Assembly (NCBI GenBank): GCA_023246055.1 | Contig: JAHFJD010000001.1 | Location: forward strand, 2,781 to 66,780 | Source: Candidatus Doudnabacteria bacterium | GTDB taxonomy: Bacteria; Patescibacteriota; Doudnabacteria; UBA920; 2-01-FULL-46-14 | Direction: 5' to 3' | DNA: 64,000 bases | Shown: positions 1-62,880 of the stretch, in pieces | Layout of the letters: each line of letters starts with the position of its first letter | Position numbering within the stretch: the stretch's first letter is position 1 | The notes under the pieces: model-generated | What the model was told of the DNA's origin: nothing | The model's input: the letters and a program-made list of their open reading frames with translations, nothing else | The model's database searches: none | Program-made: the position numbers and the translations under genes

Positions 1-182
1 TTTGAAATATGAATAGTTAGAGTTTTATTTTTGAGGCTCACAATATTGATGTCTTCGTCTGGGAAAATTTTTTTTATTTCTTGGCGGCATAAATCCAACA
101 CCTTGGCAATCTCGATTTGGCGGGAGAGGTCGTCTTTCTTGCTAAATTTGGCAGACAGGATATGGGAAAGTTTATTGAACAT
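1..182 (-). CDS. DUF721/DciA-like protein (partial, runs off left edge)
   Basis: Minus-strand ATG at 180-182; translation MFNKLSHILSAKFSKKDDLSRQIEIAKVLDLCRQEIKKIFPDEDINIVSLKN... resembles DUF721 proteins that usually follow recF; no stop within window. Confidence 0.45.
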   Translation of the reverse strand, partial: MFNKLSHILSAKFSKKDDLSRQIEIAKVLDLCRQEIKKIFPDEDINIVSLKNKTLTIHIS

Positions 183-1278: not shown

Positions 1279-1370
1279 AAACTATGACCCCCTCTCAATC
1301 TCCCCCTCACGAGGGGGAGAAGAAAGAGGAGGCCTTACTAATCCATATACAAAATTCAATATTCGATATT

Positions 1371-2465
1371 CTAAATCTTGATTGGCATCACGATATAGAG
1401 ATAATTATCCCGCCCTACCGGCATAATCGCCGCGGGCGAAGACGATCCGATGATTTTCAACACCACACTCTCATCACCAAGATTAGACAGACATTCCAGA
1501 ATATACCGGTAATTAAAAATAATGGAATTTTTCTCGCCACTAATCTTTGCGTCCAGTCTTATTTCACTGTTCCCCACCTGCGCAGATTGCGCTTTGATGA
1601 TGATTTGTTTTTGCTGTGGATTAATCTCGAGTTCAATGTTGTTATTTTCAGTAGAAAACAGGCTGACAGCCTTTAGGGACTGTGTAAATTGGTTTTTTTT
1701 TACTTCTGCTTCGGTTGTGAAATTTTTGGGGATAATTTGTTTATAATCTGGGTATTGTCCTTCAATGAGCCTGGAAATAAGCTCTGTCTCAGCGGAACGA
1801 AAACAAATTTGCCCATCGCCAAGAAATATCTCTATAGGCCCCAAACTAATGATTCTCGCCACCTCGTTAACCGCTCGTGTTGGTATAATGATTTGTTTAG
1901 GGGTGGTTATTGGGGTGAGAAGAGGAACTTTTCCTTCAGTTAATCGATAGCGATCAGTGGCGGCTAATGTTAGGTTACTTCCTTCAAATGTAAACAAAAT
2001 TCCAGAAATTTCTGGCTGCGTCTCAGAAAACGATGCCGCAAAAGTCACCTCTCCAATACAATCAATCAAATCCTTTCCCTCTATTTTTGTAAAAACCCCT
2101 TCTTTTATTTTTGGGATAATAGGAAATTCCTCGGACGGCAAACCGTTGATATTGGTTTGGGTTTTCTCGGCTTCTAAGGATAAAATTTGGTTTTTGCTAT
2201 TTATTGTTATTTTCTCTGCTGTAATATTGTTCACATAATCATTCATTAATCTTGCTGGGACTGTTATCTCTCCTTCCTCTTCGATTTTTCCCCCAACCCA
2301 AGTATTCACCGCCATTTCTAGATTAGTTCCAGAAAGTCTTAATCCACCTTCTTCTGTTTTTAATAAAATATTATTCAGAATTGGGAGGGTGTTCCCAGAA
2401 CCAATAATCCGTGAAGTAATAGCGAGACCAGAGTTTAGATTTTTTTTTGTGCACACCATTCTCAT
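1371..2465 (-). CDS. dnaN: DNA polymerase III beta sliding clamp
   Basis: 364 aa, typical three-domain DnaN sequence, downstream of dnaA. Confidence 0.9.
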   Translation of the reverse strand: MRMVCTKKNLNSGLAITSRIIGSGNTLPILNNILLKTEEGGLRLSGTNLEMAVNTWVGGKIEEEGEITVPARLMNDYVNNITAEKITINSKNQILSLEAEKTQTNINGLPSEEFPIIPKIKEGVFTKIEGKDLIDCIGEVTFAASFSETQPEISGILFTFEGSNLTLAATDRYRLTEGKVPLLTPITTPKQIIIPTRAVNEVARIISLGPIEIFLGDGQICFRSAETELISRLIEGQYPDYKQIIPKNFTTEAEVKKNQFTQSLKAVSLFSTENNNIELEINPQQKQIIIKAQSAQVGNSEIRLDAKISGEKNSIIFNYRYILECLSNLGDESVVLKIIGSSSPAAIMPVGRDNYLYIVMPIKI

Positions 2466-2674
2466 AATATTAAATTAATCTTTTAATAATAGTAGTATTC
2501 ATAATATATCCTGTGTAAATGTTTATATTGAAATTTAACACCATATTTATTTGGGCAAACATATAATTGATATCAAAGGAGAGTGTTGTTTACATGGGGA
2601 GAGGGTGTTGGAAACTTCTCTCTTAAAAAAATCCCAGAAAACTTATCCCTAATTTTTCCCCACCTCATTCCCAA
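2466..2674. promoter_or_regulatory. AT-rich dnaA-dnaN intergenic region, candidate oriC/DUE
   Basis: 209 bp strongly AT-rich between dnaA and dnaN; only weak DnaA-box-like 9-mers (TTATCCCTA at 2645-2653). Confidence 0.3.
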
Positions 2675-4102
2675 CTAATCCATATATATTTTATTGGTGA
2701 TGAGGCTTAACTCTTGTCGCAAACTATCTTTTTGTTTTAACAAATTTTGTACCTTATCTATAGCGTGAATTACAGTCGTGTGGTCACGGCCGCCAAAAAA
2801 CTCACCAATCATCGGCAGGCTGGTCTCCAATTCTTTCCTGATAATGTACATAGAAATTTGCCGTGGCGTTACATATTCCTTCTTCCTCGATTCTTTGATG
2901 AGGTCATCCACAGATACGTTGTAAAAATCAGCAACCACTGACATGATGGTTTTTGGGGAAACCAAACGTTTTTTTGGAGGGAAAATAATGCTAGCGAGAA
3001 GATTTTTAACTTTTTCTAGTGTCGGGTTTGTGTTGTTGAGCTGGCAGTAAACTATCAACCGGTTTAAAGAACCTTCTAACTCACGAATATTCGTTTCTAT
3101 GGTTTGGGCGATGTATTCTAGGACCTCGGCATCGACTTTATAACCCCGTTCCCCCACTTTCGCCTTGAGAATGGCGAGTCTGGTTTCAAAATCGGGCGGT
3201 TGGACATCAGCAATCATCCCCCATTCAAACCGCGATACCAAACGCTCTTCAATGGCGGGAATCTCTTTGGGTAGGCGGTCTGAAGACAGAACAATTTGTT
3301 TATTATTTTGATGAAGAGCATTGAAGGTATGGAAAAATTCCTCTTGGGTTTGTTCTTTGCCCGCCAAGAATTGCACGTCATCAATCAGCAATACATCGAT
3401 TGAACGGTAGAGATTTTTGAATTTTTCAGTTCTATTCTCCCGAACAGCCTGAATAAATTCATTGGTGAATTTTTCCGAGGTCACATATAAGACGCGTCTA
3501 GTATCCATGTTTCGTAAATACGCATTGCCAATCGCTTGTATGAGGTGGGTTTTACCAAGGCCAACCCCGCCATATATAAATAATGGGTTGTAAGCTTTGC
3601 CAGGAGTTTTTGTTACCGCTTGGGCCGCCGCCGCCGCCAGTTCATTGTTCCCCCCAACAATGAAGGACTCAAATGAATATTTAGGATTGAGTCCGGAATT
3701 CAAAACAGAAGGGCGAAAGCTATTTGTTTCAAGATTTGGGGGGGCAACATTTTTTTTGACTTCTATTTTCTCCGCGATTGGAGCTGGATTGTTGTGGCCA
3801 CTCGCGATCCGATATTCTACAATCTTTACAGACGGATCAATAAGTTTAAAAGCCTTCAAAATATCTTGGTGGTATTTATTGACCAGCCATTCTTTGGTAA
3901 AAGTATTGGGAACACCAATAGTAATTTTTTCGTCATGCTGTTCCAAGATCGAAGTGTTCTTGAACCAAGTGGTGAAGCTGGCTTTTGATAATGTCAATTC
4001 CAGGTTTCCTAGCACCGCCTGCCAAATTTGCTGTAAAGAGTTCACAAGTAATAAATCCTTTGATAAGTTATATGAGCAGTTTACCAGAATGATTATCAAC
4101 AT
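2675..4102 (-). CDS. dnaA: Chromosomal replication initiator DnaA
   Basis: 475 aa, AAA+ Walker A GGVGLGKTHL, C-terminal DnaA DNA-binding domain; N-terminal start uncertain. Confidence 0.9.
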   Translation of the reverse strand: MLIIILVNCSYNLSKDLLLVNSLQQIWQAVLGNLELTLSKASFTTWFKNTSILEQHDEKITIGVPNTFTKEWLVNKYHQDILKAFKLIDPSVKIVEYRIASGHNNPAPIAEKIEVKKNVAPPNLETNSFRPSVLNSGLNPKYSFESFIVGGNNELAAAAAQAVTKTPGKAYNPLFIYGGVGLGKTHLIQAIGNAYLRNMDTRRVLYVTSEKFTNEFIQAVRENRTEKFKNLYRSIDVLLIDDVQFLAGKEQTQEEFFHTFNALHQNNKQIVLSSDRLPKEIPAIEERLVSRFEWGMIADVQPPDFETRLAILKAKVGERGYKVDAEVLEYIAQTIETNIRELEGSLNRLIVYCQLNNTNPTLEKVKNLLASIIFPPKKRLVSPKTIMSVVADFYNVSVDDLIKESRKKEYVTPRQISMYIIRKELETSLPMIGEFFGGRDHTTVIHAIDKVQNLLKQKDSLRQELSLITNKIYMD

Positions 4103-4279
4103 GTAAAATCAACAAAAATAGCTTTTAATAAGGCAATTTTTGAAAAATTTGAGGATAACTTGTGCATAACCAGTGCATGATCCCTCACCTTTTACAGAAC
4201 GCGGAAAATCTGTATAATTAATTCCATAAAGTTATTTTTTTACTATTTTGACTACCTGTCAAAAATTAAAAGGTGAGGG
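4103..4279. promoter_or_regulatory. Divergent rpmH/dnaA promoter region with DnaA-box-like TGTGCATAA and 13-bp inverted repeat
   Basis: TGTGCATAA at 4161-4169 (1 mismatch to TGTGGATAA); perfect inverted repeat GATCCCTCACCTTT (4178-4191) / AAAGGTGAGGGATG (4271-4284) overlapping rpmH RBS. Confidence 0.3.
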
Positions 4280-4414
4280 ATGAAGCGAACATATCAACCA
4301 AAAAAGAAACATAGGAAGCGCAGTCATGGTTTTCGGCGGCGTATGAAGTCACGCGGGGGGCGGCGGGTTTTGGCATCGAGAAGGTTGAAAAAACGAAAAA
4401 GTTTGACAATTTAA
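4280..4414 (+). CDS. rpmH: 50S ribosomal protein L34
   Basis: 44 aa [44 protein letters not shown], below ORF-table size cutoff; RBS GGTGAGGG upstream; stop immediately followed by rnpA ATG. Confidence 0.85.
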
Positions 4415-4747
4415 ATGTTGCCCAAACAAGCTCGATTAACTCAAGAGAAAGATTTTTCGCTTGTATATAAGAAGGGCCGCCGCGTTTCATCGCACAATCT
4501 GCGACTTTTTTTTCTAAAGACACCCCGAAACTTCAATCGTTTCGGTTTTGTGATATCCAAAAAAGCCATTGCTCATAGCACGGGCCGCAATCGGGTGAAA
4601 AGAAAATTGCGAGCAGCCATCTGGCAGGAGCGCCACCAGCTTAAAACCGCCTATGATATTATCATTCAAGGACTGTCGGGCAGCGCAAGCGTCAGTCCAC
4701 ATGCATTGTGCGAAGAACTCCTAAAACTTTTCGAGAAAGTACCATAA
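4415..4747 (+). CDS. rnpA: Ribonuclease P protein component
   Basis: 110 aa basic protein, RnpA-like, canonical rpmH-rnpA order. Confidence 0.85.
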   Translation: MLPKQARLTQEKDFSLVYKKGRRVSSHNLRLFFLKTPRNFNRFGFVISKKAIAHSTGRNRVKRKLRAAIWQERHQLKTAYDIIIQGLSGSASVSPHALCEELLKLFEKVP

Positions 4748-4752
4748 CCGTC

Positions 4753-5001
4753 GTGAAATATATAGTAGTTAACTTAATAAATTTATATCAGCGTATACTC
4801 TCTCCTGACCACAGCGCGTGGGGGAAGCATCGTTACCCATTTGGTTATTGCCGTTTTTATCCGACCTGCTCTGAATATTCCAAACAAGCGATTCTGACTA
4901 ATGGTTTTATTTTGGGCGGGGTCAAGGCTGTGGCACGAGTTTTGCGCTGCAACCCTTTTTCAGCGCCGGCCATTGACCCTGTGAGTAAAGTCTCTGACTG
5001 A
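4753..5001 (+). CDS. yidD: Membrane protein insertion efficiency factor YidD
   Basis: CRFYPTCSEY motif; proposed GTG start at 4753 avoids overlap with rnpA (ORF table starts 4708). Confidence 0.75.
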   Translation: MKYIVVNLINLYQRILSPDHSAWGKHRYPFGYCRFYPTCSEYSKQAILTNGFILGGVKAVARVLRCNPFSAPAIDPVSKVSD

Positions 5002-5006
5002 TCAAA

Positions 5007-5702
5007 ATGGAAATATTTCACCTGATCCTTATAAAACCCTTACTCAACCTCCTTATACTTGTTTATAATTTCCTGCCGGGCAGTGATATGGGGCTCGCGA
5101 TCATTGCTGTTACGATCTTCGTGCGAATTATTTTATTCCCATCATTTCAGAAATCTCTGAGAGCGCAAAAGGAACTCACGGAACTCCAGCCAAAACTCGA
5201 GGAGATCAAGGAAAAATATAAAGATGACAAGGAAGCGCAAACCAAAGCCACCCTGGAGTTCTATAAAACTAACAAAATAAACCCCTTTTCTTCTTGCCTA
5301 CCACTCTTGATTCAGTTGCCATTGTTGCTTGCTCTTTACACAGTTTTTCGGTCCGGGCTAGCAGGGCAAATTGCGGGTGAGCTCTACTCTTTCGTTGCAA
5401 ATCCAGGTGTTATTAACACGAAATTTTTAGGTTTTCTTGAGCTTTCTGCGCCGAGCCTGGTCCTTGCATTGCTCGCTGGTGTGTCGCAATTTTCGCAGTC
5501 AAAACTCATGGTCCCCAAGACCAAAACAGCGAAGGACAAAACCGCGAACATGATGAATTTGCAGTTGACTTATTTTATGCCTATCATCACAGTGATCATT
5601 GCCCGGAGGTTGCCGGCCGGTCTCTCGCTTTATTGGATTACAACCACGCTCTTTGCCATCGGCCAGCAGTGGTATATAATGAGGAGGCATGGACCCCGTT
5701 AG
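5007..5702 (+). CDS. yidC: Membrane protein insertase YidC (short form)
   Basis: 231 aa, multiple TM segments, YidC/Oxa1 family, position after yidD. Confidence 0.85.
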   Translation: MEIFHLILIKPLLNLLILVYNFLPGSDMGLAIIAVTIFVRIILFPSFQKSLRAQKELTELQPKLEEIKEKYKDDKEAQTKATLEFYKTNKINPFSSCLPLLIQLPLLLALYTVFRSGLAGQIAGELYSFVANPGVINTKFLGFLELSAPSLVLALLAGVSQFSQSKLMVPKTKTAKDKTANMMNLQLTYFMPIITVIIARRLPAGLSLYWITTTLFAIGQQWYIMRRHGPR

Positions 5703-5755
5703 AAATACTTGATGATTTCAGCGGGGCGATTGATTAACTTTTTATTTCCAATAGG

Positions 5756-6208
5756 GTGGAAGAAAAATACGGGACGATAAAACAGATCATCGCAGAGATT
5801 CTGCAACATATGGGGATCGAGGCAGAAATTGAAAACCGGTTTCTAGAAGAAACCGTGATTTTTAATCTCCGAACCCCGGATTCAGGCATGCTCATCGGCC
5901 AATATGGGGCAAACCTCGCCGCATTCCAGTATCTCGCCAGGCTCTTGGCGTTTCGGCGTTTGGGCGAGTCTGTGCGCTTTGTGGTAGATGTCGAAGATTA
6001 TAAAAAAACTCGCGAAGAATTTTTGCGAGAGTTGGCGAGGCAGGCCGCTGATCGCGTGCGAGAGACCAGACAAAGCTTACTCTTGAAGCCGATGTCAGCC
6101 TATGAACGCCGAATGGTGCACGCGGAGATCGGCAACATGCCAGATGTGATGAGCGAGTCAGCTGGCATTGATCCGGAACGAAGAGTGTTAATCAAATTGA
6201 AAATCTAG
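5756..6208 (+). CDS. jag: Jag/KhpB R3H-domain RNA-binding protein
   Basis: 150 aa, KH/R3H-like C-terminus (YERRMVHAEIG), canonical position after yidC. Confidence 0.75.
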   Translation: MEEKYGTIKQIIAEILQHMGIEAEIENRFLEETVIFNLRTPDSGMLIGQYGANLAAFQYLARLLAFRRLGESVRFVVDVEDYKKTREEFLRELARQAADRVRETRQSLLLKPMSAYERRMVHAEIGNMPDVMSESAGIDPERRVLIKLKI

Positions 6209-7654
6209 AAACGGCAAGACGTAGACGAGCCAGAAGAGGATAGAGAGATCGTTTTTGAAATAGGAGACGTCGACCAGACTGTGGAGCACGATCATTGCCA
6301 TGCCGGCTCCGGCAGCGAGGGCTAACCCCCTCTTGATCTCCCCCTCACGAGGGGGAGAAATTTGTTTTTGCCCCTCCTCGTGAGGGGGGGAAGGGGAGGT
6401 AACAGTTTTGTATATTTTTTTGTAAAATAGAATCAATAGCCCAATGATACTTAGCAATCCTAAAAGCCCGGTCTCCACCCAAAAGGTCAGAAAAAAATTG
6501 TGCGGATAGTTTTGAATGACCCGATCCGGGCCGAGGGGGTAGTTTTTGTAGGCTTCACGAAAACCCGTTAGCCCTACCCCAGTTATGGGATGATGCTTCA
6601 ATATATCCACTGCCGCAGTCCACAGCACATAACGATTTTCTTTGGATGGGTCAGCATGAGTGAGATTTAGAAGTTTGGCGCGGGAGACGGGGATGGCAAA
6701 GACAAGAGTGATAATAACCAATAGCGATAACAATAACTTTGGGGTGCGCGACCTCTCCTGGCCTTCGGCCACCCTCCCCTCGCCAGGGGAGGGGATAAGG
6801 AATGCGACCCCAACAAGGGTCGCCGCCAAGGCCAGCCAGCCCGCGCGGGAAAATGTTAAATAAAATGCAACCAGTCCAAATCCGAGCGCAGTCCACCTCA
6901 ATTTGTTTTTGGGCAGCATGATTAGCATGGTGAGAACGGGCCCTAAGAGCAAGGCCAATCCATTGGGGTGGTTTAGTAATGACACGATTCTGCGCTCCGC
7001 AAAACTGACGTCCCACCAGGAGGGCGGGAGATTTTGCAAGGTCAGATATTGATAAACTCCAAACGCAGATAAATACAAAACCAGGACGGTCATGCTTTGG
7101 AATAATTTTTTCAATTTTTCTTGCGAATCAATAGTAAGGCGCAGCAAGAAATAAAAGAGTATCGGTTCAAAAAAATAAGCTTTGAAAATACCAGCGGCTT
7201 TGAGCGTGTCTGGGGCGATGAATACAGAAATGACGGCCGCAAGGAGGAAGAGAATAATAAAAATATATTGGGCCACCCCCCACCTCACCTCCTCGCCTCG
7301 CCTTCGCTCGGACGAAGCGCCCCCCACAAGGGGGGAGGAATCCCTGGTTTTTATTCCTTCCCCTTGTGGGAGAGGGTTAGGCCTGCCCGCCATTGGCCTT
7401 GAGCCTTCAGGCGATTGGCAGGCGGGGAGGGGCGAAAGGATTGAAAGTATCCGCGGGTTTCGAATTAAAGCAATAACTTCCACTGCCGCCAATAGCAAAA
7501 TCATCCCTTCGAGAAATGTCGCGGGGACTCCGAATACTTGAAAACGAATTTGATAACTCGGCAGTCCCAGGACAATGAGATAAATCCCCCACTCTCGCCG
7601 GTAAAGACTTGCCACCAAAAAACCAATTAGACTGATTATTATCCAAGGGTTCAT
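6188..7654 (-). CDS. O-antigen ligase/Wzy_C family polytopic membrane protein carrying three in-frame GC-rich repeat insertions
   Basis: 488 aa; HPHNFFLTFWVETGLLGLL Wzy_C-like motif; insertions encode SPSPPHEEGQKQISPPREGE, IPSPGEGRVAEGQERS and a ~55-aa G/P/R-rich segment. Confidence 0.6.
   Translation of the reverse strand: MNPWIIISLIGFLVASLYRREWGIYLIVLGLPSYQIRFQVFGVPATFLEGMILLLAAVEVIALIRNPRILSILSPLPACQSPEGSRPMAGRPNPLPQGEGIKTRDSSPLVGGASSERRRGEEVRWGVAQYIFIILFLLAAVISVFIAPDTLKAAGIFKAYFFEPILFYFLLRLTIDSQEKLKKLFQSMTVLVLYLSAFGVYQYLTLQNLPPSWWDVSFAERRIVSLLNHPNGLALLLGPVLTMLIMLPKNKLRWTALGFGLVAFYLTFSRAGWLALAATLVGVAFLIPSPGEGRVAEGQERSRTPKLLLSLLVIITLVFAIPVSRAKLLNLTHADPSKENRYVLWTAAVDILKHHPITGVGLTGFREAYKNYPLGPDRVIQNYPHNFFLTFWVETGLLGLLSIIGLLILFYKKIYKTVTSPSPPHEEGQKQISPPREGEIKRGLALAAGAGMAMIVLHSLVDVSYFKNDLSILFWLVYVLPFLDFQFD
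6337..6390. repeat. GC-rich hairpin repeats (family 1) TCTCCCCCTCACGAGGGGGAGA plus second hairpin CCCCTCCTCGTGAGGGGGGG, inside CDS
   Basis: Perfect inverted repeats directly visible; same motif recurs at >=14 sites. Confidence 0.8.
7255..7440. repeat. Composite GC-rich insertion (family-1-related hairpins plus CCTGCCCGCC/GGCAGGCGGG motif) inside Wzy-like CDS
   Basis: ~185 bp of >65 % GC inside an AT-rich gene; contains CCCCCCACAAGGGGGGAGG hairpin and GCCTGCCCGCC...GGCAGGCGGGG. Confidence 0.6.
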
Positions 7655-29859: not shown

Positions 29860-29927
29860 GACCCACTGAGGGATTCGAACCCCCGACTCCCGCCGTGTAA
29901 AGGAAGAACTCCCCGCCTGCCAAAGCC
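29860..29927 (-). other. tRNA 3'-half-like fragment (T-arm GGGGGTTCGAATCCCTC + acceptor strand) without matching 5' acceptor
   Basis: Minus strand ...GGCGGGAGTCGGGGGTTCGAATCCCTCAGTGGGTCA; no complementary 5' strand found. Confidence 0.35.
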
Positions 29928-29930
29928 TGG

Positions 29931-30004
29931 TGGCCATTGCTGGGTTCGAACCAGCGACCTTTCGGATGTAAACCGAATGCTCTAACCAGCTGAGCTAAAT
30001 GGCC
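29931..30004 (-). tRNA. tRNA-Val (anticodon UAC), CCA encoded
   Basis: GGCCATTTAGCTCAGCTGGTTAGAGCATTCGGTTTACATCCGAAAGGTCGCTGGTTCGAACCCAGCAATGGCCACCA. Confidence 0.85.
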
Positions 30005-30040
30005 AATGGCGGGCAGGTACCACTGAGTTAAGTGCGCGAA

Positions 30041-30124
30041 TGCCCGGGAGAGGATTTGAACCTCCACGGCCTTGCGGCCACTACCACCTCAAGGTAGCGA
30101 GTCTGCCAGTTTCTCCACCCGGGC
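30041..30124 (-). tRNA. tRNA-Leu (anticodon GAG)
   Basis: 84-nt class II tRNA; acceptor GCCCGGG/CCCGGGC; anticodon loop TTGAGGT; long variable arm; T-loop TTCAAAT. Confidence 0.85.
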
Positions 30125-30205
30125 TTTTTTGGCTTATTTAAGAGCTATATTATTATACTGAAAAATCATTGGCTTTTCAAACCCAAATCTTTATAGTTAA
30201 AACAA

Positions 30206-31690
30206 ATGACTTCTAAAAAACTTTTTTTTCTTCTGGTTTTTCTGCTTCCCATCAGCACTGGGAAAGTGTTTTTTTCGGAGCAGAGTTTTTTTTATGGTTA
30301 CCATATTTTTTATCATAGTTTTTGGGTATTCTTGACAGATATTGTATTTTGTGGTTTGATGTTGGCTTGGTTATGGGAAACCTTGACCCCCACTTCATCT
30401 CCCCCTCATGAAGGGGAGAAAATAGAAGGAGTCCCACACCAAATCACCTCAGCTTTCCTAAAAGACAGAGTTTATCAGGGATTGTTGTTTTTTTGGCTTA
30501 TTTTAGCGATTTCAACAATTCTTTCACGTGAAATGTTGCTGTCTTGGTATGGATTGGCTAGGTTTACTGAATATTTTTTCGTCTTCATCTATATCAGGGA
30601 AAATTTTCACATTTCACGTGAAATGAAGTCTTTTTTTTGGCTTATTTTAGCGATTTCTCTACTTGAAACTGGTCTTGGTATAGCCCAATACGTAAATCAA
30701 AGTTCCCTGGGTTTGAAATATCTTGGAGAATCACTTCTAAAACCAGGCATGCCAGGCGTAGCAGAATTTATTTCTCACGGAATTGGGAGCTGGCAAAACA
30801 TTTCACATGAAATGTTGGTTATGAGAGCTTACGGAACATTGCCTCACCCAAATATTTTGGGAGTTTTTCTGTTTACTGGACTGCTTGCCAATATTTGGCT
30901 TATTTATGGCACTTTGAAAGGGTTTCGATCATGGGAAATCTCTTTATTTCCAGCCCTGATCCTGGTTTCCACAGGAATGGTGTTAACTTTTTCACGCGCA
31001 GTTTGGATAGTTATTGCCCTGGTTTTGCTGAGTTTACTTGTTATGCTCCGCATCCGCAAATATCGGGTTTTTGAGACAATGCGCAGCGGGCGAAGAATGG
31101 CAGAACAGCAGGGTATTTATCTGCCCAAACATATCGCAGCCCTTATTCTGGCTTTGCTTGTGGCTTTGGGTTTGAATTTTTTTCTGTTTGGCGAGCAAAT
31201 TAAGGATCGAATAGTGGGGCGAGGTGTGGCAGCTATCGCAGAACAGGAAAGTTTTGTGGATCGCCAGCATTTCAACTCCATTTCACGTGAAATGATCAAA
31301 ACCCATCCACTGCTCGGCGTTGGGCTGCGAAATTTCGTAGCAAGAATGGATGAGTTTAACAGGCCTGCCCGCCATGCTTCGCAAGGCGATGCGGGCGGGG
31401 GAGAGCGCTTATTCCCTCAACAGCACCAGCCAGTGCACAATATTTATTTCCTGGTAGCTGCGGAAACTGGACTTGCTGGTCTCGCGGCATTGTTGTTTCT
31501 ACTCTATAATATTGTGCGACACGCAATCCAAAAGATCAGAGCCGGGGATAGGGGAGAGCGGACCATCTTGCTTGTATTGTTTTTCGGATTTCTATGTTTA
31601 GGGCTCGTTGACCACTATTTTGTTTCGATTCAGCCATCAGCCATGCTGTTTTGGATAGTGGCGGGACTCGTCTCTGCCAAAAGCGTATAA
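30206..31690 (+). CDS. O-antigen ligase/Wzy_C family polytopic membrane protein (paralogue of 6188-7654) with repeat insertions
   Basis: 494 aa; HNIYFLVAAETGLAGLAALLF Wzy_C motif; SSPPHEGEKIEG from GC hairpin; four copies of TTTCACGTGAAATG. Confidence 0.6.
   Translation: MTSKKLFFLLVFLLPISTGKVFFSEQSFFYGYHIFYHSFWVFLTDIVFCGLMLAWLWETLTPTSSPPHEGEKIEGVPHQITSAFLKDRVYQGLLFFWLILAISTILSREMLLSWYGLARFTEYFFVFIYIRENFHISREMKSFFWLILAISLLETGLGIAQYVNQSSLGLKYLGESLLKPGMPGVAEFISHGIGSWQNISHEMLVMRAYGTLPHPNILGVFLFTGLLANIWLIYGTLKGFRSWEISLFPALILVSTGMVLTFSRAVWIVIALVLLSLLVMLRIRKYRVFETMRSGRRMAEQQGIYLPKHIAALILALLVALGLNFFLFGEQIKDRIVGRGVAAIAEQESFVDRQHFNSISREMIKTHPLLGVGLRNFVARMDEFNRPARHASQGDAGGGERLFPQQHQPVHNIYFLVAAETGLAGLAALLFLLYNIVRHAIQKIRAGDRGERTILLVLFFGFLCLGLVDHYFVSIQPSAMLFWIVAGLVSAKSV
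30398..30419. repeat. GC-rich hairpin repeat (family 1) TCTCCCCCTCATGAAGGGGAGA inside CDS
   Basis: Seen directly. Confidence 0.8.
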
Positions 31691-33853: not shown

Positions 33854-34009
33854 TGTTTCGAAACTATATGTTATGGTTAAAGTATACCACATTCAAGAAA
33901 TCATGCAATAAGAAGGGCCTGTAGCCGAGTTGCTTAATCTGTCATTGCGAGCCTCGCCGTTTCGGCCGGGAACCCCTACCGCAGCAATGCGCCCCATTAG
34001 TCCATTTGG

Positions 34010-34080
34010 TGGACCTAGCGAGAATCGAACTCGCGTCCCGGCAATGCGAATGCCGTGTCTTACCACTGGACCATAGGCCC
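34010..34080 (-). tRNA. tRNA-Ala (anticodon CGC), G3:U70 present, CCA encoded
   Basis: GGGCCTATGGTCCAGTGGTAAGACACGGCATTCGCATTGCCGGGACGCGAGTTCGATTCTCGCTAGGTCCA(CCA). Confidence 0.8.
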
Positions 34081-34405: not shown

Positions 34406-34798
34406 ATGGCATTTATGGCAAAACGAGATGAATATGAAAACGGCTCTACTCCGGAAACCGTCGTTGGCTCCTCGGTCAAAATCGAAGGAGATTTGGTAAG
34501 TGACGGCGATATCCGCGTGGAAGGTGCTGTGTCGGGAAAAATAAAAACCACAAAAAATCTTTACATTGGCGTAGAGTCGCAAATCGAGGCTAACGTGGAA
34601 GCTGGCAATGCAGTGATCGCGGGCCAGGTCAAAGGAGAAATCAATATCAAAGATAGTCTTCTCATCCAAGAAACTGGCAAGGTTTCCGGAAATATTTCCT
34701 GTGCCCGGTTGTCTATAACCGAAGGCGCGCGGTTTTCCGGATCATGCACCATGGCCATGCCCGAGGGGGAAACCGTTCAAACGGAGTCTAAAGAATAA
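34406..34798 (+). CDS. Bactofilin (DUF583 polymer-forming cytoskeletal protein)
   Basis: 130 aa; beta-helical repeats (IEGDLVSDGDIRVEGAVSGKI...). Confidence 0.8.
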   Translation: MAFMAKRDEYENGSTPETVVGSSVKIEGDLVSDGDIRVEGAVSGKIKTTKNLYIGVESQIEANVEAGNAVIAGQVKGEINIKDSLLIQETGKVSGNISCARLSITEGARFSGSCTMAMPEGETVQTESKE

Positions 34799-58715: not shown

Positions 58716-58833
58716 AAGGGCGCGTGGCGGAACTGGCCCGCCCAAATTTGCAAAGCAAATTTCAGTCGGGCAGGCAGATTTGCCCCGCATAGCTGGTGCC
58801 TGTATGGCGGAACTGGTATACGCGTACGTTCAC
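58716..58833 (+). other. Two tandem degenerate copies of the tRNA-Leu(CAG) 5' portion (pseudo-tRNA remnants)
   Basis: 58716-58800: GGGCGCGTGGCGGAACTGGCCCGCC... with Leu-like D-arm and variable arm but no T-arm; 58800-58833: 28 nt identical to tRNA positions 5-32 (GTATGGCGGAACTGGTATACGCGTACG). Confidence 0.55.
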
Positions 58834-60389
58834 CCCGCACTAACTCTTTGCAAGTTTAACAAATTACTTATTCTTGATGGGCGTATGGCGGAACTGGTAT
58901 ACGCGTACGCTTCAGGAGCGTATGGCCGCAAGGCCGTGAGAGTTCGAGTCTCTCTACGCCCACCACCCAAGTAATTTCTCCGATCGGCGATCAAGTCGTA
59001 AGGTTCTTTTAGCTTAAGGATCACATTTTCCGCGCTCACCAACCGGTTCGAGGTCAACGTTTCCACCAAACAATGCTTTTCTTCTTCATTTGCCATTTCG
59101 TAGCTTGAATATGCGGTTTTTGCGAGTTCGAGAACATTGAGGACGTGATCGGGAACGGCAGCCATTTTCTCTGGGGCTCCCAGCTGCTGCTCTAGATCTT
59201 TCTTCTCCAACAGCAGAAGCCGATTCCGATTGTCAAACGCTTCTTTATCGAGGACTTGATCCAGGTAGGCGTCGGTCAGGCGAGCCAACCGCTGTTCAAT
59301 GTTCGAAATCCGCAATCGCAAACCCTTCTGTGCCGATTCCGTATTCTGCTTCCAGTCCGCTTTCAGTTTTTCAATGGCTTGCCGAGCCCGGACTTCTTCC
59401 AGCGGCTCCAGTTCCAGCTTGAACAATTCCGCCCTAACAGCGTAGTCCACGGCCTCCTCTCGTACGCAACGGGTCGGACATGCCGAAGTATGGCAACGGT
59501 AATAAACATGGCCTTTCTGCCGCTCGCCGATCATGGTTGCCTGACAGAGGCTGCACGCCAGTAGCCGCCGGAAAGCAAACCAATGCCGGAAATTCCTCGG
59601 GTGATAACGTCCATCGAGTATGGCTTGCACACGATCGAAGGTAGGCTTCGGTACCAGCGGTACGTGAGCGCCGGGAAAGGATTCTCCAGTGCTGTGAATG
59701 AGAATCACACCGACATAGAAGGGATCCCGTAACATCAAGGCCCACCGGGCCCGCTGCACGGAGCGGTTCCTGGTGTTTCTCAAGCCTCGCTTCGTCATTT
59801 CCTCCGTCAGTTGATCAAGGTTGTATCTTCCGGATGCGTACAGATCGAAACCCAGACGAACGAGTGGCCCTTTGACCGGGTCGATGGCCTTGGGTTGACC
59901 GGCTCCTTGATCAAGGTAACCCAACGGGGCAGGGCGCGGATAGATACCTTGCTTGAGCCGGCCATAGAATCCTTTGCGCGTCTCTTCGCGTAGGTTTCGG
60001 ATATAGTCGGCGGCCACGACAGCTTGAATGTCAGCGGTCAGCCGCCCGCCGCGCGTGTTCAGATCCAGGCTTTCATTGGCAAACCAAACATCAGTCCCCT
60101 GATCGATGAGTTCTCCGAGATCCGCCCAGTCCCGAAGGTTCCTGGCGCTGCGGTCGATCTTGTGAATGACCACACCGGTCGCCTTGCCGGCTTTCAATGC
60201 TTTCAGCATTTGATTGAAAATCGGTCGTCCGCGTTTGGCAGCGGTTTCTCTTTCTTCAAACCATTCTCCAACATCGAACCCGCGGGTTCGGCAGAATCGC
60301 TCGATGGCGCCTCGCTGTTCTTGCAAAGAGACGCCTTTTTCGCCTTGTTTGGGCGTAGAAACACGGATGTAACCAAACACTTGTTTCAT
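58830..60389 (-). CDS. Large serine recombinase (resolvase/invertase N-terminal domain + recombinase + zinc-ribbon domains)
   Basis: 519 aa; YIRVSTPKQGEKGVSLQEQ catalytic Ser motif; C-terminal ~47 codons read antisense through tRNA-Leu so true stop may be earlier; high local GC. Confidence 0.85.
   Translation of the reverse strand: MKQVFGYIRVSTPKQGEKGVSLQEQRGAIERFCRTRGFDVGEWFEERETAAKRGRPIFNQMLKALKAGKATGVVIHKIDRSARNLRDWADLGELIDQGTDVWFANESLDLNTRGGRLTADIQAVVAADYIRNLREETRKGFYGRLKQGIYPRPAPLGYLDQGAGQPKAIDPVKGPLVRLGFDLYASGRYNLDQLTEEMTKRGLRNTRNRSVQRARWALMLRDPFYVGVILIHSTGESFPGAHVPLVPKPTFDRVQAILDGRYHPRNFRHWFAFRRLLACSLCQATMIGERQKGHVYYRCHTSACPTRCVREEAVDYAVRAELFKLELEPLEEVRARQAIEKLKADWKQNTESAQKGLRLRISNIEQRLARLTDAYLDQVLDKEAFDNRNRLLLLEKKDLEQQLGAPEKMAAVPDHVLNVLELAKTAYSSYEMANEEEKHCLVETLTSNRLVSAENVILKLKEPYDLIADRRNYLGGGRRETRTLTALRPYAPEAYAYTSSAIRPSRISNLLNLQRVSAG
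58879..58962 (+). tRNA. tRNA-Leu (anticodon CAG), CCA encoded
   Basis: GGGCGTATGGCGGAACTGGTATACGCGTACGCTTCAGGAGCGTATGGCCGCAAGGCCGTGAGAGTTCGAGTCTCTCTACGCCCA(CCA). Confidence 0.85.
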
Positions 60390-60470
60390 GGTTGTTGGTG
60401 GACTTGAGACTTACTTAGTTAAAAGATTACTGGCTAGAGTGGTGATAAAACGTGGAGAAACTCTCGCCCT

Positions 60471-62720
60471 TTATCGTCGGATGTATCCCCCAATCGCTCG
60501 GTCGTCCAACCCAGCAAGGTGGGCATCCTTCTTCCGATTTAGAAAAGCGAAGACATGCCAATAAAGCAGTCCACGCGCCGCTTCGCTGGCGCCGGCGTGC
60601 TCCTGAAGCAACTCGTTTAGCATTCCCCAAACTTGTCCATATTGCTCGTTTCGCAATAGTACTTCTGCCAAGCGAATGGTGATCTCGACACGAAGATCCT
60701 TGTCACTGCATGTATCGGCCCATTTTCGCCATTCAGCAAAGTCCGGCTTGGTGTCCATGCGTTCTCGCCACCTGGCACGGACTACATCGTACGCGCAACA
60801 CTGTTGGAGATTGGAAGGATCCGGCCGTTCAAGTGGAAACTCGTTAGCGCTTTCGCCCAACGTTTTAAGCTGCAGCAAGATTTCCAATGACTTTACGAGG
60901 TAGTCCTGGCCTGGCTTAAATCGTAGGTATGGGTTCGCCAGAATCCACTCCAGAACGCTTTCAACGTGAGTGTTCGTGTGCCTGAATGACGACCGGAAAA
61001 AAGGCCAAATATCACCGCTGATCAGCGCAAAAGTGACTTCCGACAGGTCGTTTCCAATTCGGGAACCAGACACCAAACCATCCTGGATCGCACTTAGCAA
61101 GTCTGATTTAGTCTTATCTTTTATATCTCGCCGTACGCGGTCAACCAATCCTTGATTGATGCGCTGGACGAATGTAATCGGCTGGACGAGACTAGCGAAA
61201 AGATTCTCCGCAGTAGGATCGATTTGTGAGGCATCAACATGAATTACGCTCGCAAAACCGAACGTATCAAGATCGTCGATCAGCCGAGTGATGTCACTCT
61301 CCAGATGTTCGTTCAGGTTTTGAAATGCACTCTCAGCGGCCCTCACAAAGAGCGTCTTCGTAAATCCTAAAGGCGCATTCGAATCCAGAAGGACCAAAAG
61401 GTCGAGGAGCGCTCTTGCGCGTTTCGATAGCGACTCCAGAAAGTAGTCGCAATGGTTGTCAGATAGCCTCAGAAATTTTGATTGAGTCATCCTGACGGCG
61501 GTCCCAGGATTGCCACTTGACATCGCGGCGATGGTAGCTACGTCCACGTCACGCGGAAGGTCCATCCGATTCAAGATGGCTGCGATGTCTGAGCGCCTGA
61601 GAGGTTGAAGCTTGAGGCTCGGCAGTTCTGCCACATCCAAGGGGTAAATGGATTCGAAAATCCATACAGTACGATCCCGAGCCGGAGCGGTCTTCCCTTG
61701 TGAGGTGACCTCGCGCACAAATTCCCTGATACTGTTGGCTGCAGCAATTGGATAGGATTCGACCCATATAACAATATCCTTCGAATCCAGTTCCTCAATT
61801 AGCTTTGTACGGCCTAGACCGCTGGGATCAGCATCTGTCACCGCCCGAAAGGTGTGTTGTAGGAACTTATCCACGGAGCGAGCATCTCCCGGACTAACTG
61901 GAAAGCAGTCGCGTTCTCGATTGCGTATATAGTGCTTGATTAGCTCGCTTTTCCCCAGTCCAGGCACAGAGACAACGTCGACGAAACGAACAGTTTTAAG
62001 CGATTCTTTCAACCGTTCGTAATCACTTGATCGTAATTTGTCTAAGTACCAGGGTTTTGAAATCAGATTGTGAACACCATCTAGGTTCTGTCTTAGGAAG
62101 GTTGAAAGACTTTCTAGGTCTGGAAAGGAGGCTAGGCGTTGTTTGATGATAGACTTTAATTGGTCTGCAGCGGAGAGGTGACCGTCAATTTGCGCGCTAC
62201 GAAGCTGCTTCTTCAAAACATCGAGCAAGTTGTATTCATGGGTATAATTCGCTTTCGGTTCGCCTGCGATTCCGACATTGTCATGCGAGAGGTCATGGAG
62301 ATCCGACTTGATCTTCTGAATGTCTGAAAGATCAAGGCCAGGGCAATAGAACAGAATTTCTGGGTCGCGACGGCTTAGAAACCTTATACCCTGATTAACG
62401 AGTGCTCCCTTAAGGAATCCCTGTAAACGCTCCAACTTTTCCAAGAAGGAGTGGAGCTGGCGAGAAACTTCATCGCCAGGTAGATTCTTGACTTCACAGA
62501 CCGCTAGTCGATCTCGAAACGCCAGAACCAAGTCAGCTTGTCTCGCTTTTTGCCAGGGGAATGCCACTTCGAAGAACGCTGACAATTCACCTCGGCTATC
62601 GGTATCCAAAGTGTCCGCCCACCTCTCAATGTCTCGAATTGTGTTTAACGTAGTGGGCTTACTCACCCATTGTTTAAGAGCTCTTATCCACTTTGGATCG
62701 TCTGGAACAAAGCATCGCAT
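60471..62720 (-). CDS. NERD/PD-(D/E)xK nuclease-like domain fused to P-loop NTPase and C-terminal alpha-helical domain (candidate defence/abortive-infection protein)
   Basis: 749 aa; N-terminal ...ADLVLAFRDRLAVCEVKNLPG (D...EVK NERD-like); Walker A VSVPGLGKSELIKHY near aa 300; long helical C-terminus; ~55 % GC vs ~42 % flanks. Confidence 0.55.
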   Translation of the reverse strand: MRCFVPDDPKWIRALKQWVSKPTTLNTIRDIERWADTLDTDSRGELSAFFEVAFPWQKARQADLVLAFRDRLAVCEVKNLPGDEVSRQLHSFLEKLERLQGFLKGALVNQGIRFLSRRDPEILFYCPGLDLSDIQKIKSDLHDLSHDNVGIAGEPKANYTHEYNLLDVLKKQLRSAQIDGHLSAADQLKSIIKQRLASFPDLESLSTFLRQNLDGVHNLISKPWYLDKLRSSDYERLKESLKTVRFVDVVSVPGLGKSELIKHYIRNRERDCFPVSPGDARSVDKFLQHTFRAVTDADPSGLGRTKLIEELDSKDIVIWVESYPIAAANSIREFVREVTSQGKTAPARDRTVWIFESIYPLDVAELPSLKLQPLRRSDIAAILNRMDLPRDVDVATIAAMSSGNPGTAVRMTQSKFLRLSDNHCDYFLESLSKRARALLDLLVLLDSNAPLGFTKTLFVRAAESAFQNLNEHLESDITRLIDDLDTFGFASVIHVDASQIDPTAENLFASLVQPITFVQRINQGLVDRVRRDIKDKTKSDLLSAIQDGLVSGSRIGNDLSEVTFALISGDIWPFFRSSFRHTNTHVESVLEWILANPYLRFKPGQDYLVKSLEILLQLKTLGESANEFPLERPDPSNLQQCCAYDVVRARWRERMDTKPDFAEWRKWADTCSDKDLRVEITIRLAEVLLRNEQYGQVWGMLNELLQEHAGASEAARGLLYWHVFAFLNRKKDAHLAGLDDRAIGGYIRR

Positions 62721-62845
62721 ACGCGTTTACTTGGATTGGATTGGGCAGAGCATACGAAAAGCAGGCTGCAAAAGCAACCTGCCGAAATCTCCCCGAGCTA
62801 GTAGCTGAAGGAAATCCACACCATCCTCCTGTAAATATAACTTGG

Positions 62846-62880
62846 GCTGCTATGTCCGATAGGACTCGGACATAGCAGCT
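62846..62880. repeat. Strong perfect hairpin GCTGCTATGTCCGA-TAGGA-CTCGGACATAGCAGC downstream of island-internal gene start
   Basis: 14-bp perfect stem seen directly. Confidence 0.8.

What the first reader, a model, noticed from the sequence alone, without database searches (positions are those of the whole stretch)
30522..31294. Four copies of the 14-bp palindrome TTTCACGTGAAATG inside one CDS, plus an internal duplication
Within the Wzy-like gene the palindrome occurs at 30522-30535, 30611-30624, 30801-30814 (CACATG variant) and 31281-31294. Each is translated as ISREM/ISHEM. A ~23-bp segment TTTTGGCTTATTTTAGCGATTTC is also duplicated (30491 and 30637). A CACGTG-core palindrome repeated four times in 800 bp of coding sequence is unexpected. 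It could be intragenic regulator binding sites or remnants of a small mobile palindrome.
Basis: seen in the sequence. Interest (0 to 1): 0.5.

Follow-up and report, generated by a model that had tools for sequence, protein, structure and literature searches.

The report
Centromere-like parS sites inside a gene
The repeated palindrome is most likely a cluster of parS sites, the DNA landing pads of the chromosome-segregation protein ParB, written in frame into a membrane-protein gene near the replication origin of an uncultured Patescibacteria bacterium and conserved at the DNA level in related genomes.

Summary
Four copies of (C)ATTTCACGTGAAAT(G), one with CACATG, lie in 775 bp of a Wzy_C-family ORF (30206-31690) and nowhere else in the 64 kb. 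The 12-bp core TTTCACGTGAAA is the core of the chromosomal ParB site parS (TGTTTCACGTGAAACA).

The window holds recF-dnaN-dnaA|rnpA-yidC-jag, so the cluster lies about 26 kb from the likely origin.

In 80 homologous loci from Patescibacteria genomes plus the window, the core (at most 1 mismatch) occurs 63 times inside the Wzy ORFs (114 kb) and 14 times in 1.17 Mb of flanks. Several relatives carry perfect canonical parS.

The cause is selection on the DNA, not a protein repeat. Ser-Arg-Glu is encoded TCA-CGT-GAA in 47 of 55 cases in these genes, against 1 of 75 in neighbouring ORFs.

The "internal duplication" is a second motif conserved at synonymous sites (TTTTGGCTTATTTTAGC). Its function is unexplained.

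No ParB gene lies in the window or the flanks, and binding is inferred. The outer half-site base is A, not the canonical G.

Verdict: a new member of a known kind (a parS centromere cluster), of moderate interest.

The parts
30520..30535 (.). parS-like site 1, TCTTTCACGTGAAATG (core 12/12; read in frame as L-S-R-E-M)
   Evidence: Alignment slot at about residue 106 carries a site in 14 of 31 aligned Wzy homologues. S107 is TCA in 11/11 and R108 is CGT in 8/9 orthologues.
30610..30625 (.). parS-like site 2, CATTTCACGTGAAATG (perfect 16-bp palindrome; I-S-R-E-M)
   Evidence: Slot at about residue 138 is shared by 9 of 31 aligned homologues. S137 is TCA in 7/7 and R138 is CGT in 8/9.
30799..30814 (.). 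parS-like site 3, CATTTCACATGAAATG (core 11/12, degenerate; I-S-H-E-M)
   Evidence: The same slot (about residue 201) has a perfect core in the two closest relatives L082 and L085, so this copy carries a G-to-A change.
31279..31294 (.). parS-like site 4, CATTTCACGTGAAATG (perfect 16-bp palindrome; I-S-R-E-M)
   Evidence: Slot at about residue 361 is shared with L082, L085, L021 and L046.
30206..31690 (+). Host gene: Wzy_C / O-antigen-ligase-family polytopic membrane protein (494 aa)
   Evidence: ORF. Pfam PF04932, E = 1.5e-15, 57.7 bits against a cut-off of 31.7. 59 homologues found, 29 aligned. About 11 hydrophobic segments; the four sites fall at segment ends or in loops.
30488..30513 (+). 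Companion motif, copy 1 (TTTTTTTGGCTTATTTTAGCGATTTC; encodes FFWLILAIS), two codons upstream of site 1
   Evidence: The 17-mer TTTTGGCTTATTTTAGC (up to 2 mismatches) occurs 43 times inside Wzy ORFs and 8 times outside. Leu codons are fixed: CTT in 26/34 and TTA in 31/34 FWLIL peptides, against background frequencies of 0.21 and 0.28.
30632..30657 (+). Companion motif, copy 2 (identical 26 nt), three codons downstream of site 2
30124..30149 (+). Third, 77%-identical copy of the companion motif in the intergenic region, abutting the 5' end of the minus-strand tRNA-Leu(GAG)
30332..30360 (+). Promoter-like element embedded in codons 43-52: TTGACA, 17 nt, (TGG)TTTGAT
   Evidence: Read from the sequence. 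In orthologues it reads TTGACA-17-TGGTATAAT (L008) or TGGTCTAAT. L43 is TTG in 11/11 (p = 5e-7) and L51 is CTA in 6/8. Function not tested.
2675..4102 (-). dnaA, within the origin-region gene set recF-dnaN-dnaA | rnpA-yidC-jag (172-6208). It sets the distance of the cluster from the likely origin at about 26 kb.
   Evidence: Pfam Bac_DnaA, DNA_pol3_beta, Ribonuclease_P, 60KD_IMP. Three 8/9 DnaA boxes lie at 4093-4169.

Best explanation
The four palindromes are chromosomal parS-type centromere sites. ParB dimers would nucleate on them, then spread or slide along neighbouring DNA as CTP-bound clamps. The resulting partition complex marks the origin-proximal region for segregation (with ParA) and for loading of SMC.

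The sites lie inside a coding sequence. parS has only two stop-free reading frames: xTT-TCA-CGT-GAA-Axx, which gives [F/L/I/V]-S-R-E-[T/I/M/N/K/S], and TTT-CAC-GTG-AAA, which gives F-H-V-K. Here the sites are written as (I/L)-S-R/H-E-M at the ends of transmembrane segments and in loops of a Wzy_C-family membrane protein.

The same gene carries such sites in related Patescibacteria, some at shared positions and some lineage-specific. What is maintained is therefore a tight cluster of sites at this chromosomal place, not any one site.

Shown here: the sequence identity to the parS core, the clustering, the origin proximity, conservation across genomes, and selection on synonymous codons. Inferred: that ParB is the binder and that the function is segregation.

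The duplicated 26-mer is a separate DNA-level motif of unknown role.
For: 1. Core identity. TTTCACGTGAAA is the central 12 bp of the published parS consensus TGTTTCACGTGAAACA (PMC7022226 table; papers listed). It is present in 3 of the 4 sites, and 11 of 12 bases in the fourth.

2. Restriction to one gene. Over the window plus 80 loci found through peptide patterns unrelated to SRE, there are 63 cores (up to 1 mismatch) in 114 kb of Wzy ORFs and 14 in 1171 kb outside, a 46-fold difference in density. Eleven of the 14 outside copies lie within 1.4 kb of the gene.

3. Canonical sites in relatives. Perfect TGTTTCACGTGAAACA occurs in the homologous gene or right next to it: 9 times in L021, 5 in L016, 4 in L046, 2 in L043, and also in L002, L012 and L047.

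4. DNA-level selection. SRE is encoded TCACGTGAA in 47/55 cases in Wzy ORFs, against 1/75 in other ORFs of at least 150 aa in the same loci. HVK is encoded CACGTGAAA in 9/14 against 0/17. The strongest codon-conservation outliers among 229 alignment columns include S107, R108, S137, R138 and R243. The residue before SRE always comes from an xTT codon and the residue after it from an Axx codon.

5. Only the two stop-free frames are used.

6. Origin proximity. dnaA, dnaN and recF lie at 0.2-4.1 kb, with rnpA, yidC and jag alongside.

7. The locus is syntenic across genomes: S1-FemAB-[Wzy]-bactofilin-DAGK-IF2-RbfA-DHH. All four window slots are shared with the two closest relatives.

8. ParA and ParB exist, and are scored essential or growth-defective by Tn-seq, in a cultured Patescibacterium, Southlakia epibionticum (SEML1_0183 and SEML1_0184; PMC10633639 supplement).
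Against: No ParB or ParA gene was found in the 64-kb window, in the annotated contigs extending beyond both ends of the window, or in 1.28 Mb of related loci. The searches were tblastn, a ParB HMM and Pfam on neighbouring proteins. The rest of the genome could not be read.

Seven of the 8 half-sites have A where canonical parS has G at position 1. That base is contacted by Arg173 of ParB, which is reported as conserved in ParB orthologues (PMC7383237). A canonical ParB might therefore bind these sites poorly. Relatives mix A, G and T at this position.

About half of the syntenic orthologues carry no site in the gene.

Binding has not been measured.
Confidence: 0.77

Rival explanations
1. The sites are bound by a different sequence-specific protein: a ParB paralogue with a Noc-like or regulatory role, or an unrelated transcription factor that recognises a CACGTG-core palindrome and controls the Wzy gene or an internal promoter.
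For: The outer base A matches the Noc site ATTTCCCGGGAAAT at position 1 (PMC7383237). A conserved promoter-like element lies about 190 bp upstream of site 1 inside the gene. No ParB gene is nearby. ParB itself is known to modulate transcription in some species (PMC4488948, listed).
Against: Position 6 is A as in parS, not C as in the Noc site. Noc sites are dispersed around the chromosome, whereas these are clustered near the origin (PMC7383237). Distant relatives carry the exact 16-bp ParB consensus at the same gene. Four operators spread over 775 bp of coding sequence are unusual for a gene-specific regulator.
Confidence: 0.12
2. The repeats are a protein feature: a recurring I-S-R-E-M structural or functional motif of this Wzy_C subfamily. 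On this view the DNA palindrome is a by-product of codon usage.
For: S107 is invariant, and R108 and E109 are at least 90% conserved, in 29 homologues. The motifs sit at similar structural places, at segment ends and in loops.
Against: In the 11 closest genes the codon frequencies are TCA 0.23, CGT 0.19 and GAA 0.67, which predicts about 3% TCACGTGAA. The observed figure is 47/55 over all the Wzy ORFs, against 1/75 in other ORFs of the same loci. The palindrome extends into the flanking codons. At the same alignment slot some homologues carry the site in the other frame, as FHVK. Sites continue into non-Wzy DNA next to the gene in L021 and L016.
Confidence: 0.04
3. The palindromes, together with the 26-nt repeat, are remnants of a small mobile or repetitive palindromic element (of the MITE, REP or Rickettsia-palindromic-element kind) that inserted in frame.
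For: There are multiple near-identical copies. In L021, nine copies of an extended palindrome aatTGTTTCACGTGAAACAatt lie in 1.2 kb, which suggests local amplification.
Against: The unit is only 14-16 bp, with no target-site duplication or terminal structure. There are no copies elsewhere in the 64 kb and almost none in 1.17 Mb of flanks. All four window sites occupy alignment slots shared with genomes at 43-60% protein identity. The 26-nt repeat is a direct repeat whose position is conserved across orthologues.
Confidence: 0.03
4. The palindromes act at the RNA level, as hairpins in the Wzy mRNA that affect stability, pausing or processing.
For: The sequence is self-complementary and lies in a transcribed region. 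Synonymous constraint is equally compatible with a selected RNA structure.
Against: The hairpin would be a 6-bp A/U-rich stem with a 4-nt loop, which is weak (read from the sequence). No Rfam family matches the gene. In relatives the same sequence also occurs outside the ORF. The exact identity to a DNA-binding consensus is not explained.
Confidence: 0.02

Closest known systems
Chromosomal parS (ParB/Spo0J-binding centromere-like site, consensus TGTTTCACGTGAAACA) as in Bacillus subtilis, Caulobacter and Hyphomonas
   Same: The central 12 bp TTTCACGTGAAA are identical. The site is palindromic, present in several copies, origin-proximal and rare elsewhere. parS inside coding DNA has a precedent: the first described B. 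subtilis site lies inside spo0J (Lin and Grossman 1998, from my own knowledge).
   Different: The outer two bases on each side are C-A/T-G instead of T-G/C-A, so position 1 is A rather than the G contacted by ParB Arg173 (PMC7383237). All four sites lie in one gene, 26 kb from dnaA, and not next to parAB. The cognate ParB has not been seen.
Dense parS clusters of Streptomyces coelicolor (21 sites), Myxococcus xanthus (22) and Listeria innocua (PMC7022226 table; PMC7333895)
   Same: Many closely spaced sites near the origin. The consensus drifts between lineages: CACCTG in Streptomyces, TGTTCCACGTGGAACG in Myxococcus.
   Different: Here the cluster is tied to one orthologous membrane-protein gene across genomes whose proteins are only 25-60% identical, and individual sites turn over inside it. 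The searched literature describes no such host-gene association.
Noc-binding site NBS (ATTTCCCGGGAAAT) of Bacillota
   Same: A at position 1, and the same ATTTC...GAAAT arms.
   Different: The centre is CACGTG (A at position 6), not CCCGGG. The sites are clustered near the origin instead of dispersed. Noc is described as a paralogue confined to Bacillota (PMC7383237).
Box A heptamers (ATTTCAC) of plasmid P1 parS (from my own knowledge, not checked here)
   Same: The half-site ATTTCAC is the same heptamer that the helix-turn-helix of P1 ParB recognises. This shows that a ParB-family protein can read A at this position.
   Different: P1 parS is an asymmetric composite of box A, box B and an IHF site on a plasmid. 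Here the sites are simple abutting inverted half-sites on a chromosome.
Engineered ParB variants with Gln173 plus Lys179 or Lys184 and Gly201 (PtoN5, 6 and 11 in PMC7383237)
   Same: The paper reports that these variants switch to a hybrid site with features of both parS and NBS, and that Q173 variants prefer adenine at position 1. That A1 plus A6 half-site is the type seen in the window.
   Different: They are laboratory constructs. Whether the window organism's ParB has such residues is unknown.

Membership tests
Chromosomal parS (ParB-binding centromere site) | Palindrome containing the conserved core of TGTTTCACGTGAAACA | tested here: met
   The 12-bp core TTTCACGTGAAA is exact in 3 sites and 11/12 in the fourth. 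Consensus taken from PMC7022226.
Chromosomal parS (ParB-binding centromere site) | G at position 1 of each half-site (contact of ParB Arg173) | tested here: not met
   Seven of 8 half-sites have A and one has C. Relatives mix A, G and T. Contact described in PMC7383237.
Chromosomal parS (ParB-binding centromere site) | Origin-proximal location | tested here: met
   dnaA is at 2675-4102, with recF, dnaN, rnpA, yidC and jag around it. The cluster is at 30.5-31.3 kb.
Chromosomal parS (ParB-binding centromere site) | Few, clustered copies; absent from the bulk of the DNA | tested here: met
   Zero further copies in 64 kb. 63 copies in the gene against 14 in 1.17 Mb of flanks over 81 loci. The whole genome is not available.
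Chromosomal parS (ParB-binding centromere site) | Sequence maintained by selection on the DNA itself | tested here: met
   Codon tests. Shared alignment slots.
Chromosomal parS (ParB-binding centromere site) | A ParB (ParB_N plus HTH_ParB) encoded by the same genome | not testable with these tools
   None in the window, the contigs extending it, or the related loci. Other contigs of the genome cannot be reached. ParAB exist in a cultured Saccharibacterium.
Chromosomal parS (ParB-binding centromere site) | Specific ParB binding and CTP-dependent loading in vitro or in vivo | not testable with these tools
   Requires an experiment.
Noc-binding site (NBS) | C at position 6 (centre CCCGGG) and dispersed chromosomal distribution | tested here: not met
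   The centre is CACGTG and the sites are clustered.
Mobile palindromic repeat (MITE, REP or RPE-like) | Dispersed copies, terminal structure or target duplication, presence or absence varying between orthologues independently of position | tested here: not met
Protein sequence repeat | Conservation at the amino-acid level with free synonymous codon choice | tested here: not met
   47/55 SRE are encoded TCACGTGAA, against 1/75 in control ORFs.
Wzy_C / O-antigen ligase family (host gene) | Match to Pfam PF04932 above the gathering score | tested here: met
   57.7 bits against a cut-off of 31.7, E = 1.5e-15, residues 250-430. Enzymatic activity was not tested.

The most novel reading that the evidence does not exclude
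The four sites may be the core of a composite centromere embedded in a gene and conserved across Patescibacteria. It would combine three elements: parS variants that have lost the canonical G at position 1, which implies a ParB whose residue-173 contact is changed or relaxed (a natural counterpart of the engineered ParB-to-Noc intermediates); a companion 17-24-nt motif at nearly fixed spacing from the two oldest sites; and a consensus promoter embedded upstream in the same ORF. On this reading the choice of a polytopic membrane-protein gene is not accidental. One possibility is that coupled transcription, translation and membrane insertion tether the centromere to the membrane of these very small cells.
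Probability: 0.2. Interest if true: 0.7.

Novelty: new member of a known kind. Interest (0 to 1): 0.45.

Why it matters
It places a likely centromere on the chromosome of an uncultured Patescibacteria lineage. In the literature I could search, no paper links parS with this group.

It shows that a DNA signal can dictate a conserved peptide motif (SRE or FHVK) in a protein. Anyone reading such "conserved motifs" as functional residues should take note.

The same gene keeps a tight cluster of sites while individual sites come and go, across proteins that are only 25-60% identical. This gives comparative material for an open question in the field: why parS sites cluster, and what keeps them clustered (PMC7333895).

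The variation at the specificity-determining outer base (A, G or T by lineage) predicts co-variation in ParB residue 173, which can be tested directly once the genomes are read in full.

Tried and rejected
1. ParB and ParA search. A ParB HMM built from 40 database ParBs also found nothing, at E up to 10. Pfam on 20 neighbouring proteins and the annotated contigs extending the window gave nothing either.

2. Looking for Patescibacteria ParB sequences. A consensus ParB query returned only Bacillota and Pseudomonas-type proteins. The last database search, with the ParB of metagenome locus L148, led to Coriobacteriia, not to the window's lineage.

3. Literature. No paper links parS with Patescibacteria/CPR or with O-antigen ligase genes. 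DUF4446 appears in no paper. Livny et al. 2007 is not held.

4. Metagenome scan for the exact 16-mer. No Wzy homologue was among the 120 loci, so it did not extend the orthologue set, but it gave side observations.

5. Rfam found no RNA family in the gene.

6. Companion motif. I considered an antisense promoter (GTGAAA-16-TAAAAT, 9/12), a sigma-54 promoter (the GG-to-GC spacing is one base too short), an IHF site, a DnaA box and a frameshift site, all by reading the sequence. None fitted convincingly, so it is left unexplained.

7. GC skew over the window is not informative about the origin.
Full report
**Observation**

The sequence contains four copies of a CACGTG-centred palindrome inside one ORF:
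- 30520-30535, TCTTTCACGTGAAATG
- 30610-30625, CATTTCACGTGAAATG
- 30799-30814, CATTTCACATGAAATG
- 31279-31294, CATTTCACGTGAAATG

The ORF is 30206-31690 (+), 494 aa, and matches Pfam Wzy_C (PF04932) at E = 1.5e-15. The sites are read in frame as LSREM, ISREM, ISHEM and ISREM.

No other copy with up to 1 mismatch exists in the 64 kb. The 12-bp core with up to 1 mismatch is expected 0.14 times and is seen four times. The internal duplication is a 26-nt perfect direct repeat at 30488-30513 and 30632-30657.

**What the palindrome is**

The central 12 bp, TTTCACGTGAAA, are the central 12 bp of the chromosomal ParB-binding site parS, TGTTTCACGTGAAACA (PMC7022226; further papers).

The window begins with recF, dnaN and dnaA on the minus strand, followed by rnpA, yidC and jag on the plus strand. 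This is the classical origin-region gene set. Three 8/9 DnaA boxes lie upstream of dnaA. The cluster therefore lies about 26 kb from the likely origin, where parS sites are normally found (PMC7333895).

**Evidence from relatives**

The protein has 59 database homologues. An alignment of 29 of them shows [F/I/V]-S-R-E motifs at the same positions and at additional ones, including variable loops. The residue before SRE always comes from an xTT codon and the residue after it from an Axx codon.

I fetched 80 genomic loci encoding homologues from species-representative genomes. They were found through the peptide patterns HQP[VA]HNI[YF] and R[AG]YGT[LF]PHP, so selection was blind to the palindrome. 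The record titles name Candidatus Doudnabacteria, Paceibacterota, Moraniibacteriota and other Patescibacteria.

Over these loci plus the window:
- The core (up to 1 mismatch) occurs 63 times inside the Wzy ORFs (114 kb) and 14 times in the remaining 1171 kb.
- Eleven of those 14 lie within 1.4 kb of the gene.
- 25 of the 81 ORFs carry at least one site.

Several distant homologues carry the exact 16-bp consensus: 9 copies in L021, 5 in L016, 4 in L046 and 2 in L043. The closest relatives carry five sites (L082, 60% identity), six (L085) and three (L083).

**DNA-level or protein-level**

This is the decisive test. In the Wzy ORFs, Ser-Arg-Glu is encoded TCA-CGT-GAA in 47 of 55 cases. In other ORFs of at least 150 aa in the same loci the figure is 1 of 75. 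His-Val-Lys is encoded CAC-GTG-AAA in 9 of 14 cases, against 0 of 17.

In a codon alignment of 11 orthologues, the strongest synonymous-codon outliers among 229 columns include S107 (TCA 11/11), R108, S137, R138 and R243.

Only the two stop-free frames of the palindrome are used. At the best-conserved slot, some homologues carry the site in the SRE frame and others in the FHVK frame. The peptide motif is therefore a consequence of a selected DNA sequence.

On the protein alignment:
- The slot at window residue ~106 holds a site in 14 of 31 genes.
- The slot at ~138 holds a site in 9 of 31.
- All four window slots are shared with L082 and L085.
- Many other slots are lineage-specific.

The cluster persists while single sites turn over. 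In the window protein the sites fall at the ends of hydrophobic segments or in long loops.

**Mechanism**

The best-supported reading is a parS centromere cluster. ParB nucleates on the palindromes, spreads or slides on flanking DNA, and the complex serves origin segregation and SMC loading (established knowledge, reviewed in PMC7333895).

What is shown is the identity of the site, its clustering, its origin proximity and the selection on the DNA. That ParB binds is inferred.

ParA and ParB do exist in Patescibacteria. In Southlakia epibionticum, SEML1_0183 and SEML1_0184 are annotated as ParA-type ATPase and ParB, and are scored essential or growth-defective by Tn-seq (PMC10633639 supplement).

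**Weak points**

No ParB or ParA gene lies in the window, in the annotated contigs extending it, or in 1.28 Mb of related loci. The rest of the genome is out of reach.

Seven of the eight half-sites read ATTTCAC, not GTTTCAC. Position 1 is one of the two bases that distinguish parS from the Noc site. In Caulobacter ParB it is contacted by Arg173, which is reported as conserved in ParB orthologues. Engineered Gln173 variants prefer A at this position (PMC7383237).

Relatives of the window use A, G or T here, often mixed within one gene, while more distant lineages keep the strict consensus. Either the ParB of this clade reads position 1 loosely or it has changed. I could not decide between these.

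**The internal duplication**

The repeated 26-mer encodes FFWLILAIS. Its core, TTTTGGCTTATTTTAGC, is itself conserved at the DNA level:
- With up to 2 mismatches it occurs 43 times inside Wzy ORFs and 8 times outside.
- It is almost always on the coding strand, 240-600 nt into the gene.
- It is also present in distant homologues that lack parS-like sites.
- In 34 FWLIL peptides the first Leu is CTT in 26 and the second is TTA in 31, against background frequencies of 0.21 and 0.28.

The motif contains an imperfect inverted repeat, TGGCT-N6-AGCCA. In the close orthologues it sits two to three codons from the two oldest parS slots, on the left of one and on the right of the other, both in direct orientation.

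A 77%-identical copy abuts the 5' end of the divergent tRNA-Leu gene. I tested several readings: an antisense promoter, a sigma-54 promoter, an IHF site, a DnaA box and a slippery site. None fitted convincingly (and reading of the sequence). Its function remains unexplained.

**Rivals**

- A protein repeat is contradicted by the codon data.
- A mobile palindrome is contradicted by positional conservation and by the absence of dispersed copies.
- An RNA hairpin would be weak and does not explain identity to a DNA-binding consensus.
- A non-ParB binder, or a regulatory ParB paralogue, cannot be excluded and takes most of the remaining probability.

**Comparison and novelty**

The element works like, and most probably is, chromosomal parS. 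It passes the tests for core sequence, clustering, origin proximity and DNA-level selection. It fails the test for G at position 1. The tests for a cognate ParB and for binding could not be run.

It is not a Noc site: the centre is wrong and the sites are clustered. parS clusters and parS inside genes are known. What is new:
- The lineage. No paper in the searched library links parS with Patescibacteria.
- The long-term association of the cluster with one membrane-protein gene.
- The drift at the outer base.

I rate it a new member of a known kind, with moderate interest.

Noticed in passing
window 30332-30360 (+): A sigma-70-like promoter is embedded in codons 43-52 of the Wzy ORF: TTGACA, 17 nt, TGG-TTTGAT. 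In orthologues it reads TTGACA-17-TGGTATAAT (L008) or TGGTCTAAT. The Leu43 codon TTG is kept in 11/11 and the rare CTA at Leu51 in 6/8. The element points downstream through the parS-like sites. Its role is unknown.
   Followed up: partly
window 34406-34798 (+); L083 12000-12914: A bactofilin gene lies 1-8 kb downstream of the site-bearing Wzy gene in most syntenic loci, usually preceded by a DUF4446 gene. The window has the bactofilin but no DUF4446. A multicopper oxidase and an ArsR regulator lie in between. In Myxococcus, bactofilins position ParB-parS complexes (from my own knowledge), so the linkage may be meaningful.
   Followed up: partly
L092, L097, L099, L154, L180 and others (metagenome contigs): In many metagenome contigs a UPF0102/YraN-family gene (PF02021) carries two in-frame parS-like sites exactly 24 bp apart (...FVEVKTVSRE...DISREM...), with further sites nearby. 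L123 has three sites at the 5' end of a valyl-tRNA synthetase-like ORF (judged from its sequence, not checked). Gene-embedded parS-like clusters with mixed outer bases are therefore not limited to the Wzy gene.
   Followed up: partly
L148 2483-3415 (-) and L137; proteins P0180-P0299: A ParB clade, named Coriobacteriia in database records, lacks the Arg173 that reads G1 of parS. Residues 170-173 are SKNQ, SKKP, SKSS and similar in 120/120 members, with Gln at 173 in 53, while Gly201 is kept. All 120 mainstream ParBs have G[K/R/Q]SR or SKSR. In L148 the gene sits about 1 kb from GTTTTCACGTGAAAAC and CATTTCACGTGAAATG. This disagrees with the reported conservation of R173 and suggests natural co-variation between ParB and parS.
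   Followed up: partly
L021 10861-12055; L046; L043: In some Paceibacterota and Moraniibacteriota loci the canonical sites are extended palindromes, aatTGTTTCACGTGAAACAatt. L021 has nine in 1.2 kb, running from the 3' half of the Wzy gene into the DNA downstream of it.
   Followed up: partly
window 29860-30124 (-) and 34007-34080 (-): Minus-strand tRNA genes (Val-TAC and Leu-GAG in close orthologues, Ala/Arg/Pro in others) lie directly upstream of the Wzy gene, and tRNA-Ala(CGC) lies downstream, in most of the syntenic loci scanned. ARAGORN calls two overlapping tRNA-Val genes (29860-29935 and 29928-30004), but Rfam supports only the second.
   Followed up: partly
window 6188-7654 (-): A second Wzy_C-family gene sits next to jag in the origin region and carries no parS-like site. 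The sites are specific to one paralogue.
   Followed up: partly
window 58830-64000: A serine-recombinase gene (Resolvase/Recombinase domains) overlaps tRNA-Leu(CAG) at 58879-58965. In the contig extension it is followed by a 749-aa ORF, a phage-integrase-like gene, Rad52/22, PD-(D/E)XK and peptidase M23 genes. This is probably an integrated mobile element or prophage at the tRNA.
   Followed up: no
window 30206-31690 compared with L004: Neighbouring genes are 61-87% identical to those of Candidatus Doudnabacteria RIFCSPHIGHO2_01_FULL_46_14 (L004), but the Wzy protein is only 39% identical, and L004 keeps a single degenerate site. The host gene evolves much faster than its surroundings, yet it retains the DNA motifs.
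   Followed up: no
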